A stretch of 64,000 nucleotides of DNA from Eledone cirrhosa (Eukaryota), in contig OZ024751.1 of NCBI GenBank assembly GCA_964016885.1, forward strand, positions 21,204,001 to 21,268,000, in the 5' to 3' direction. Position 1 is the stretch's first letter. Each line of letters begins with the position of its first letter. Made by a program: the position numbers and the translations under genes. The notes beneath the pieces were generated by a model, which was not told where the DNA came from, did not search any database, and saw nothing but the letters and a program-made list of their open reading frames with translations. This document shows positions 35,793 to 37,530 of the stretch, piece after piece.

Positions 35793-36697
35793 TCTCTCTC
35801 TCATTGTTTTTCTCTTTCTCCATCTCTTTGTCCCTCGTTTTCTTTCTCAGCTTCTATCTTTTTGTCTCTATCATCTCTATATATCATTTTGGTTTCTAAT
35901 CCCTCTTTCTCTCTCTTCCCCTTCCTTTCGCTTTCTATAACTCACTCTCTCTCTCTCTCTTTCTTTATATATATATATATATGTTTCTCAATTTCTCATT
36001 ATCTTTTTCTATGTTTCTTTTGTTCCTCTATACATTTCTGTCTTTTCCTCCCCCTTCTCTCTTCTCTTAATCACTCTTTCTTCTCTTTTCTCCTCCCAGT
36101 CCCGCTGGAATACATTTCTGTATTTAAATATTCACCACCACATTAATCTATAAACGGCAACAAACATAAATCACTTCATATCAGCACACTTCCATACACC
36201 ACGCTTCACCTCACCATCCACACTCACCACACAACACCTCCTCACCACACCTATCCATCCACACATCACCTCGCCACACCTCACCACCACACCATCTTAA
36301 CTCCCCCCCACCTCACCACCACATCCTCATCTCACCGCATCACCCTCACTTCACAATGTACATCTCACCTCACCTCACCAAACCCCACCTCACCACGCCA
36401 CACCATCCACATCACACGATCTACACCTTGCCATTGTCACCTCACGATCCACCTCTCACCATACCTTCCTTACCTCACAACACCACCCTCGCCTCACCAC
36501 ATCAATGGGCAAATGTGCTACAGCCTTTGGTTGACCAATGCCCCATGAGGAACATATATATATATATATGTAATTGGTGTGGGATGCTTAAAGCGTCCGT
36601 ATGCGGTAGGCCGTTTGAGTACTCAATGCTCTTACAGAGCAGAGTATGATATCACATAAGAAAGGGAGAATCAGTGGTGCGACGAATAACATTTATT

Positions 36698-36794
36698 AGA
36701 CATATTACAATTGTTTCACTGGCGACCAGCTCGAGGCACGATCGATGTAATTATCGAACCTGACTCTGAAATCGCAAGGTCCTCAGATACGTCT
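36698..36794 (-). ncRNA. Type I minimal hammerhead ribozyme with intact core
   Basis: Reverse complement: agacgtat CTGAGGA c cttgcgat-(44 nt)-gtcgccag t GAAA caattg TA atatgtct; 8-bp stem I; GUA site. Confidence 0.75.
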
Positions 36795-37530
36795 CGATTC
36801 AGAGTCTGGTTCGATCATTACATCGATCGTGCCTCGAGCTGGTCGCTAGAGAAACGATTGTAATCTAAACTATAATAAAGGAAGGCTTGCGGGACTGCGT
36901 ACGGTTTATTTTTTTTATCTCGTTAGTAAAATAAGTTGGATTACTTTGAATAAATAATTGTTTCTACTTTAGGCACAAGGCCAGCAATTATCCAGTGCAT
37001 TACTAGTACTTTATTTTATCTACTAAATTTTATCTACTAAATTTCGTAAACAAAAATAATTTCGTAAAAATAAATAATTTAAAATTGACTTCTTTTCAAA
37101 GTTGCACTTCCGGTATATCGTTGCCACCACCACCACTTCAACTACCATATATATAGAAAGAGAGAGTGTGTGATGTCAACACTTCCGGTGGCGATTACTT
37201 AAATAAACATACTAATTTTCTGTCACTAATTTTTTCCTAATGCAGTTTATATATAATATCGTCTTTTTTAATGTATCATGGATTACGTTACTGATTACGT
37301 AAGACAGTGTAACGCAGTCTTCGTTCAATTTCTGTTTATATTGTCAATTACGATTTTATTTGATGTATCATATCTACATGTATATATACTTGCGTATAAT
37401 ATCAATATACACACTACACATGCTAGCAGATAACCACCCGAAGGGGGGGGGGGGGGGTTCTACTAGTGATATTAATAAATTTTATTCGTCGCCACACTGA
37501 TTCTCCGTTTCTTATGTGATATATATATAT

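What the first reader, a model, noticed from the sequence alone, without database searches (positions are those of the whole stretch)
36650..36864. Intact HHR with an attached antisense copy of its own catalytic 3' half
Seen: a minus-strand HHR at 36698-36794 with 8-bp stem I (agacgtat/atatgtct), CUGAGGA, stem II with a structured ~44-nt loop, and GAAA-caattg-UA. Directly 5' of it, 36795-36864 is an inverted duplicate of loop II plus GAAAcgattgTA. The downstream tail (36650-36697) recurs at ~37475-37520, starting close to the predicted cut. Inference: fold-back synthesis during insertion produced a cis-antisense arm that would switch the ribozyme off in read-through transcripts. This is one of the two best-preserved motifs in the window.
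Basis: partly seen in the sequence, partly recalled or inferred. Interest (0 to 1): 0.75.

Follow-up and report, generated by a model that had tools for sequence, protein, structure and literature searches.

The report
Penelope retroelement stub with mirrored end
The hammerhead motif and its mirror-image arm are real, but they are the ordinary broken footprint of a high-copy Penelope-type jumping gene, whose enzyme likely copies the same RNA end onto both sides of a DNA cut, so the arm is likely a by-product rather than an off-switch; only the motif's unusually long, conserved middle stem stands out.

Summary
Observation largely confirmed; the switch interpretation is not supported. 36572-37522 is a 5'-truncated insertion of a Hydra-clade Penelope-like element (PLE) in (TA)n: the end repeat (pLTR) with a type I minimal hammerhead plus tail, head-to-head with an inverted tail-less copy. 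The 'recurring tail' at 37473-37522 is the rest of that same arm, split off by a 603-bp Helitron-like insertion (36864-37466). Inverted arms are the family norm: 43 of 65 sampled copies; 34 end at one fixed site; inner breakpoints are scattered; 17 reach further 5' than the body. This fits priming from both ends of the cut better than fold-back. The pattern is published, and this scan found it before on other DNA of this genome. The arm is predicted to abolish the fold, but as a lock, on a motif that would need a partner to cut; no RNA could be tested. This copy is below-median in preservation. Residual interest: across four related families the 61-62-nt helix II covaries (8 of 21 pairs), against 12-26 nt in published Hydra hammerheads. 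Cleavage untested.

The parts
36554..36571 (.). Left (TA)n target remnant
   Evidence: Sequence; (TA)n flanks in family copies
36572..36648 (-). PLE tail (about +138 to +214); continues into the 5' leader about 45 nt before the ATG in full-length copies
36572..36800 (-). Body: 5'-truncated pLTR (-14 to +214) of a Hydra-clade PLE, family A
   Evidence: upstream ORF in other copies
36698..36794 (-). Type I minimal hammerhead motif; predicted cut between 36706 and 36705; AATAAA at 36697-36692
   Evidence: covariation; cleavage untested
36718..36779 (-). 62-nt helix II: 21 interrupted pairs, 8-nt variable loop, 1x1 mismatch next to the core
36798..36863 (+). Inverted arm, proximal part (+16 to +81); short microhomology at the joint with the body (36795-36800)
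36864..37466 (+). Helitron-like non-autonomous element inserted into the arm at A|T (5' TC, 3' hairpin and CTAG)
37467..37522 (+). Inverted arm, distal part (+88 to +137 at 37473-37522; 37468-37472 do not match the family sequence)
37519..37530 (.). Right (TA)n target remnant, overlapping the arm's fixed end
   Evidence: Sequence

Best explanation
This is a truncated insertion of a Hydra-clade Penelope-like retroelement whose inverted arm is likely a by-product of insertion, later split by a Helitron-like element. Shown: family, element anatomy, arm statistics, the interrupting element, covariation of the motif. Inferred mechanism: the element's GIY-YIG nuclease would cut both strands of (TA)n, and its reverse transcriptase would extend both 3' ends on element RNA from two internal start sites (+214, giving the tailed body; +137, giving the tail-less arm); both cDNAs stopped early (-14 and about +14) and joined through a few complementary bases. 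The hammerhead is likely a weak, dimer-dependent motif under selection in the source elements; in this copy it is likely dead weight. About 0.9 for 'PLE insertion by-product'; about 0.65 for two-ended priming over fold-back.
For: 1926 first-look candidates, best 40 at 94-96% identity. Longer copies lead upstream into an RT and GIY-YIG ORF with Hydra motifs, and carry the same repeat in direct orientation before the ATG. 43 of 65 copies have an inverted piece; 34 of 43 end at +130..+141 (31 at +136/137), 3 carry the tail. 17 of 43 arms reach at least 5 nt further 5' than the body. Arms also sit kilobases from the 3' repeat, at the 5' truncation point of long copies (L031, L172, L181). In family B, 11 of 12 head-to-head pairs among 30 loci join one tailed and one tail-less end, and tail-less ends also occur without a nearby partner. 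Published: inverted 5'-truncated copy plus optional tail (PMC8557442; PMC3846280); an Anolis PLE protein cuts and extends both strands from two internal start sites that bracket the tail (PMC11167929).
Against: In this copy the arm is a subset of the body with microhomology at the joint, which fold-back explains equally well. 10 of 43 joints are symmetric within 4 nt, and arm and body usually share lineage alleles (28 of 32 at +109, 14 of 14 at -16), so both come from one source lineage, as fold-back would also give. Samples are top BLAST hits, not random. Pfam GIY-YIG hits are below the curated cut-off (E 0.0016 and 0.01) and the two RT fragments had no Pfam hit; clade assignment is by motifs, not a tree. 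The in vitro precedent is from another PLE clade.
Confidence: 0.85

Rival explanations
1. Fold-back: the first cDNA's 3' end snapped back on itself and copied itself to +137, where it joined the (TA)n target; later deletions at the palindrome centre made some arms longer than their bodies. Still a by-product, not a switch.
For: Microhomology at this joint and arm contained in body; 10 of 43 symmetric joints; allele concordance; self-priming was proposed for rotifer PLEs (PMC3846280).
Against: 17 of 43 copies in which neither side contains the other; +137 also ends copies without a nearby partner; distant arms in long copies; here arm and body differ at the lineage sites +96 and +109 (weak, since 4 of 32 copies are discordant at +109).
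Confidence: 0.3
2. One reading: the arm is a cis-antisense element that switches an active ribozyme off in read-through transcripts and matters as such.
For: The arm is predicted to abolish helices I and II.
Against: Breakpoints are scattered and not centred on the catalytic half; the arm was disrupted by another transposon; a 66-bp duplex has no predicted on-state; helix III is two pairs and would need a second motif (PMC4209133); the body alone is predicted to misfold; arm and body have decayed like other copies.
Confidence: 0.04
3. The motif is no longer a catalytic hammerhead: the fold is kept as a protein-binding or RT-positioning element.
For: First helix II pair is never Watson-Crick (C.A, A.A, A.G, A.C) and family D has U4C in 29 of 30 rows; U4C lowers activity in vitro (PMC3088659); hammerhead cleavage was dispensable for insertion by the Anolis protein in vitro.
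Against: C3, G5, A6, G8, A9, GAAA and U16.1 are kept across four families while position 7 varies (G, C, A), the catalytic signature; a 1x1 mismatch at this place is listed for 15 of 26 published Hydra rows.
Confidence: 0.25

Closest known systems
Hydra clade of C-terminal EN+ Penelope-like elements (Craig et al. 2021, PMC8557442; passages and supplement part 2 read), e.g. Penelope-13_HM with an inverted 5'-truncated copy, Penelope-2_NV
   Same: DKT, CxCX5C linker, no CCHH inside GIY-YIG, CxxC and CxH near the C-terminus, (TA)n targets, hammerhead in the pLTR with palindromic helix III, inverted 5' copy and tail, frequent 1x1 mismatch at the base of helix II.
   Different: 61-62 nt between the core strands (12-26 nt in the 26 Hydra rows listed); RWR for RWK; element longer than the usual under 3 kb (1.8 kb from EN end to hammerhead in family A); not the listed Hydra-1_Obim motif.
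[quoted passage not shown]
   Same: Type I topology, palindromic helix III needing a dimer, mostly solo truncated copies, pairs on opposite strands 100-700 bp apart already noted.
   Different: Their consensus has G10.1-C11.1 and a 6-8 bp helix II; here the first pair is a mismatch followed by C-G, and helix II has 21 pairs.
Poseidon of Anolis carolinensis, PAc (Frangieh et al. 2024, PMC11167929; parts 1-2 of 4 read)
   Same: AT-rich target, two fixed 3' ends bracketing a tail that runs into the element's 5' region.
   Different: Other clade; its ORF starts inside the hammerhead, here about 250 nt after C3; the text read does not demonstrate head-to-head joining.
Non-autonomous Helitrons (hallmarks recalled)
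   Same: 5' TC, 3' hairpin then CTAG, A|T target, no duplication, high copy number.
   Different: No RepHel partner was sought; the 3' hairpin of this copy is decayed into a G run.

Membership tests
EN+ Penelope-like element | Single ORF with RT followed by C-terminal GIY-YIG | tested here: met
   Broken ORF pieces in L093, L094, L172-L187; GIY-YIG Pfam E 0.0016, below cut-off; RT pieces judged by motif, no Pfam hit. None in the window itself
EN+ Penelope-like element | pLTR in direct partial tandem or inverted at the 5' end, optional tail | tested here: met
   Direct 5' repeat before the ATG in L177, L179, L180, L185-L187; 43 of 65 inverted
Hydra clade | DKT motif and RWK motif | tested here: met
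   LDKTG and RMRWRA (RWR variant) (definition)
Hydra clade | CxCX5C linker; CCHH absent; CxxC and CxH near E and N | tested here: met
   CNCRVGEEC, one Cys between VY and YIG, CKLC, CRH
Hydra clade | Insertion into (TA)n | tested here: met
Hydra clade | RT phylogeny groups with Hydra references | not tested
   No reference proteins were held; no tree built
Neptune clade | CX2-5CxxC linker and CCHH motif | tested here: not met
   Both absent; my first label, dropped
Type I minimal hammerhead | Core C3-A9, G12-A14, A15.1-U16.1, H17, with variable position 7 | tested here: met
   Window intact; kept in four families, position 7 G, C or A; U4C in family D
Type I minimal hammerhead | Helices I and II supported by covariation | tested here: met
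   2 of 5 and 8 of 21 pairs change on both sides; 93.8% of cells paired, slid controls 27-42%
Type I minimal hammerhead | G10.1-C11.1 closing pair | tested here: not met
   C.U in the window; C.A, A.A, A.G, A.C in families A-D. Not obligatory: mismatch in 15 of 26 Hydra rows, natural U.U
Type I minimal hammerhead | Self-complementary helix III for dimer folding | tested here: met
   ACAAUUGU here and in B-D; ACGAUUGU with wobbles in A
Type I minimal hammerhead | Self-cleavage after H17 | not testable with these tools
   Needs an assay
Helitron | 5' TC, 3' hairpin plus CTAG, A|T target | tested here: met
   5' A|TC in 9 of 12 loci (3 abut TA runs); CTAG|T in 7 of 12, near-variants in 3, 2 truncated. 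Hallmarks recalled
Non-LTR retrozyme | Tandem head-to-tail units each with a hammerhead, no ORF | tested here: not met
   Single body plus inverted arm; upstream sequence leads into the PLE ORF (definition)

The most novel reading that the evidence does not exclude
These Hydra families carry a long-arm hammerhead whose 21-pair covarying helix II is a dedicated RNA domain that docks the element's protein or a partner RNA, and a short pLTR RNA starting near -35 is loaded twice on a protein dimer to prime both ends of one cut, which makes this family a natural dataset for the unsolved PLE integration step.
Probability: 0.2. Interest if true: 0.5.

Novelty: new member of a known kind. Interest (0 to 1): 0.2.

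Why it matters
As posed (a ribozyme with its own antisense switch) it does not hold; it is one of over a thousand candidate copies with a published insertion pattern. The arm statistics fit two-ended priming, a step of PLE transposition still unproven, and the long covarying helix II with a mismatched base extends the known range of Hydra hammerheads and would be missed by Rfam and by short-helix descriptors. Both are of modest specialist interest.

Tried and rejected
Rfam: no hammerhead match in the region; the whole-window scan showed only the best 150 of 392 rows, all repeat-driven. Sequencing runs: no RNA holder listed; the four runs laid were contigs of one study and none spanned the stretch, so nothing is concluded on expression. 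Neptune label: dropped on motifs. A short-helix ancestor: the 15 short-spacer matches are mostly internal deletions of families A and B. Core conservation among copies of family A (874 of 887, against 9317 of 9597 for non-CpG flanks) says little, since copies decay after insertion. Cleavage-defined ends: no cluster of arm or body ends at +80. ADAR signature: none of the 12 private changes in body and arm is A>G or T>C. Lunse et al. 2017 on PLE hammerhead dimers is not held; seen only in a reference list, and it may describe long helix II variants. Searches for prior mention: (listings) and scan look-ups 62, 74, 75 (blank); these do not show that the long-helix variant is unpublished. Rows left out of the 65: L096, L120, L121 (duplicates) and L125 (tail only).

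Full report
Observation. The minus strand holds an 8-bp stem I, CUGAGGA at 36786-36780, 62 nt, GAAA-CAAUUG-UA at 36717-36706 and AATAAA after stem I. An inverted copy of the 3' part lies at 36798-36863 and another inverted match at 37473-37522. Together the first arm and the body fold at -110 kcal/mol, z = -16; the motif alone folds no better than shuffles (z -1.3 to -1.8), and Rfam finds no hammerhead. Positions below count C3 as 0.

It is a repeat. A search of the own genome gave 1926 first-look candidates; the 40 scored are 94-96% identical apart from the window itself and end in (TA)n. Walking upstream through longer copies gives a 1.8-kb 3' region, a GIY-YIG domain and RT pieces, and at the 5' end the same repeat in direct orientation, ending about 45 nt before an ATG. 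The protein has DKT, RWR, a CxCX5C linker, no CCHH, and CxxC and CxH near its end, the diagnostic set of the Hydra clade in PMC8557442. I first called it Neptune; the motifs exclude that. The window holds only the non-coding end.

The 'tail recurrence' is the rest of the arm. Projected on a family copy, the body spans -14 to the tail and the arm +16..+82 and +88..+137. The 603 bp between them belong to a second repeat (1241 candidates) that begins A|TC in 9 of 12 loci and ends in a hairpin and CTAG|T in 7 of 12, Helitron hallmarks as I recall them. It landed one base past the cut position. Five bases after it (37468-37472) do not match the family and are unexplained.

Arms are the norm. I scored 65 copies (39, 26; top hits, not a random sample). 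43 have an inverted piece; 34 end at +130..+141, 3 carry the tail, 6 are short inner pieces. Inner breakpoints run from -126 to +113. 22 arms hold the whole motif, 8 only its 3' half as here. In 17 the arm reaches further 5' than the body, 10 are symmetric, 16 are subsets. In family B, 11 of 12 pairs among 30 loci join a tailed and a tail-less end; in family D 5 of 30 loci show the same, with two rows from one full-length locus and one fragment uninformative. The inverted 5'-truncated copy and the tail are described as usual PLE features (PMC8557442 passages; PMC3846280 passages), opposite-strand hammerhead pairs were noted in 2014, and one Hydra family is listed with this arrangement.

Mechanism. 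The Anolis PLE protein cuts and extends both target strands and starts reverse transcription at two internal sites that bracket the tail. Applied here by inference: one end was primed at about +214, the other at +137 where GAUAU matches the target; both stopped early and joined by a short microhomology. Against this, the window's own joint fits fold-back equally, 10 joints are symmetric, and arm and body share lineage alleles in most copies (28 of 32, 14 of 14, 13 of 14 at three sites). I put two-ended priming at about 0.65 and fold-back with later deletion at about 0.3. Either way the arm is a by-product.

Is it a hammerhead? Three related families (about 70-80% identical) keep C3, G5, A6, G8, A9, GAAA and GUA while position 7 varies; family D has U4C. 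On 19 hand-picked rows (the window, 4 A, 4 B, 5 C, 5 D) 93.8% of cells pair and 10 of 28 pairs change on both sides, 8 of them in helix II; RNAalifold predicts 20 of the 21 helix II pairs unprompted but not helices I and III. I drew the structure from these sequences and four families are few independent events, so the shuffle counts overstate the case. The first pair of helix II is always a mismatch. That breaks the G10.1-C11.1 consensus but 15 of 26 published Hydra rows show a 1x1 mismatch there. The length is the unusual part: 61-62 nt against 12-26 nt in those rows, though two plant PLE motifs in the same table have long inserts, one of about 54 nt. Helix III needs a dimer, and such motifs cleave weakly.

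The switch. The arm is predicted to remove helices I and II completely, so the physical claim holds for a transcript that starts beyond the arm. But there is no on-state, the copy has no partner motif, it is predicted to misfold alone (helix II probability 0.03 against 0.59), 36 of 51 copies are better preserved, and another transposon broke the arm. Expression could not be tested.

Verdict. An ordinary PLE footprint of a Hydra family not among those listed in the paper read, seen before by this scan on other DNA of this genome. Interest 0.2, carried by the long helix II and the arm statistics. Supplements of the other papers were not read, and Lunse et al. 2017 is not held; either may bear on how unusual the long helix is.

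Noticed in passing
Family A copies, -29 to -38 relative to C3 (e.g. L065, L068, L073, L097, L101): 5' ends cluster here: 17 of 65 bodies and 16 of 43 arms, with similar clustering in families B and D. Could be the start of a short pLTR transcript or an RT stop; the window's copy stops short of it.
   Followed up: partly
L177, L179, L180, L185, L187, just after the tail: A pyrimidine tract ending in CAAG lies about 22 nt before the ATG, like a splice acceptor; PLE 5' leaders are known to hold introns. No donor was established.
   Followed up: no
window 36949-37023: A fragment of a very common SINE-like repeat (more than 10 further matches in the window) is embedded in the Helitron-like element, also in its other copies.
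   Followed up: partly
window about 5075-5345: Another head-to-head inverted pair with CUGAUGA cores at 5148 (-) and 5274 (+), next to (TA)n; probably a different PLE family.
   Followed up: no
window 13600-13630 (+) and 14427-14546 (-): Two more hammerhead-like motifs with palindromic helix III near (TA)n; the second has about 100 nt between the core strands.
   Followed up: no
L094:1719-2897: A separate PLE fragment with CX4CxxC linker and cysteines inside GIY-YIG (Neptune-like) lies upstream of a Hydra copy.
   Followed up: no
window 38123-39840: Tandem array of about 65-nt units with a 194-nt higher-order period.
   Followed up: no
L037, just past the Helitron-like 3' end: The same Helitron-like family abuts the tail of this PLE family at another locus, as expected from shared AT-rich targets.
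   Followed up: no
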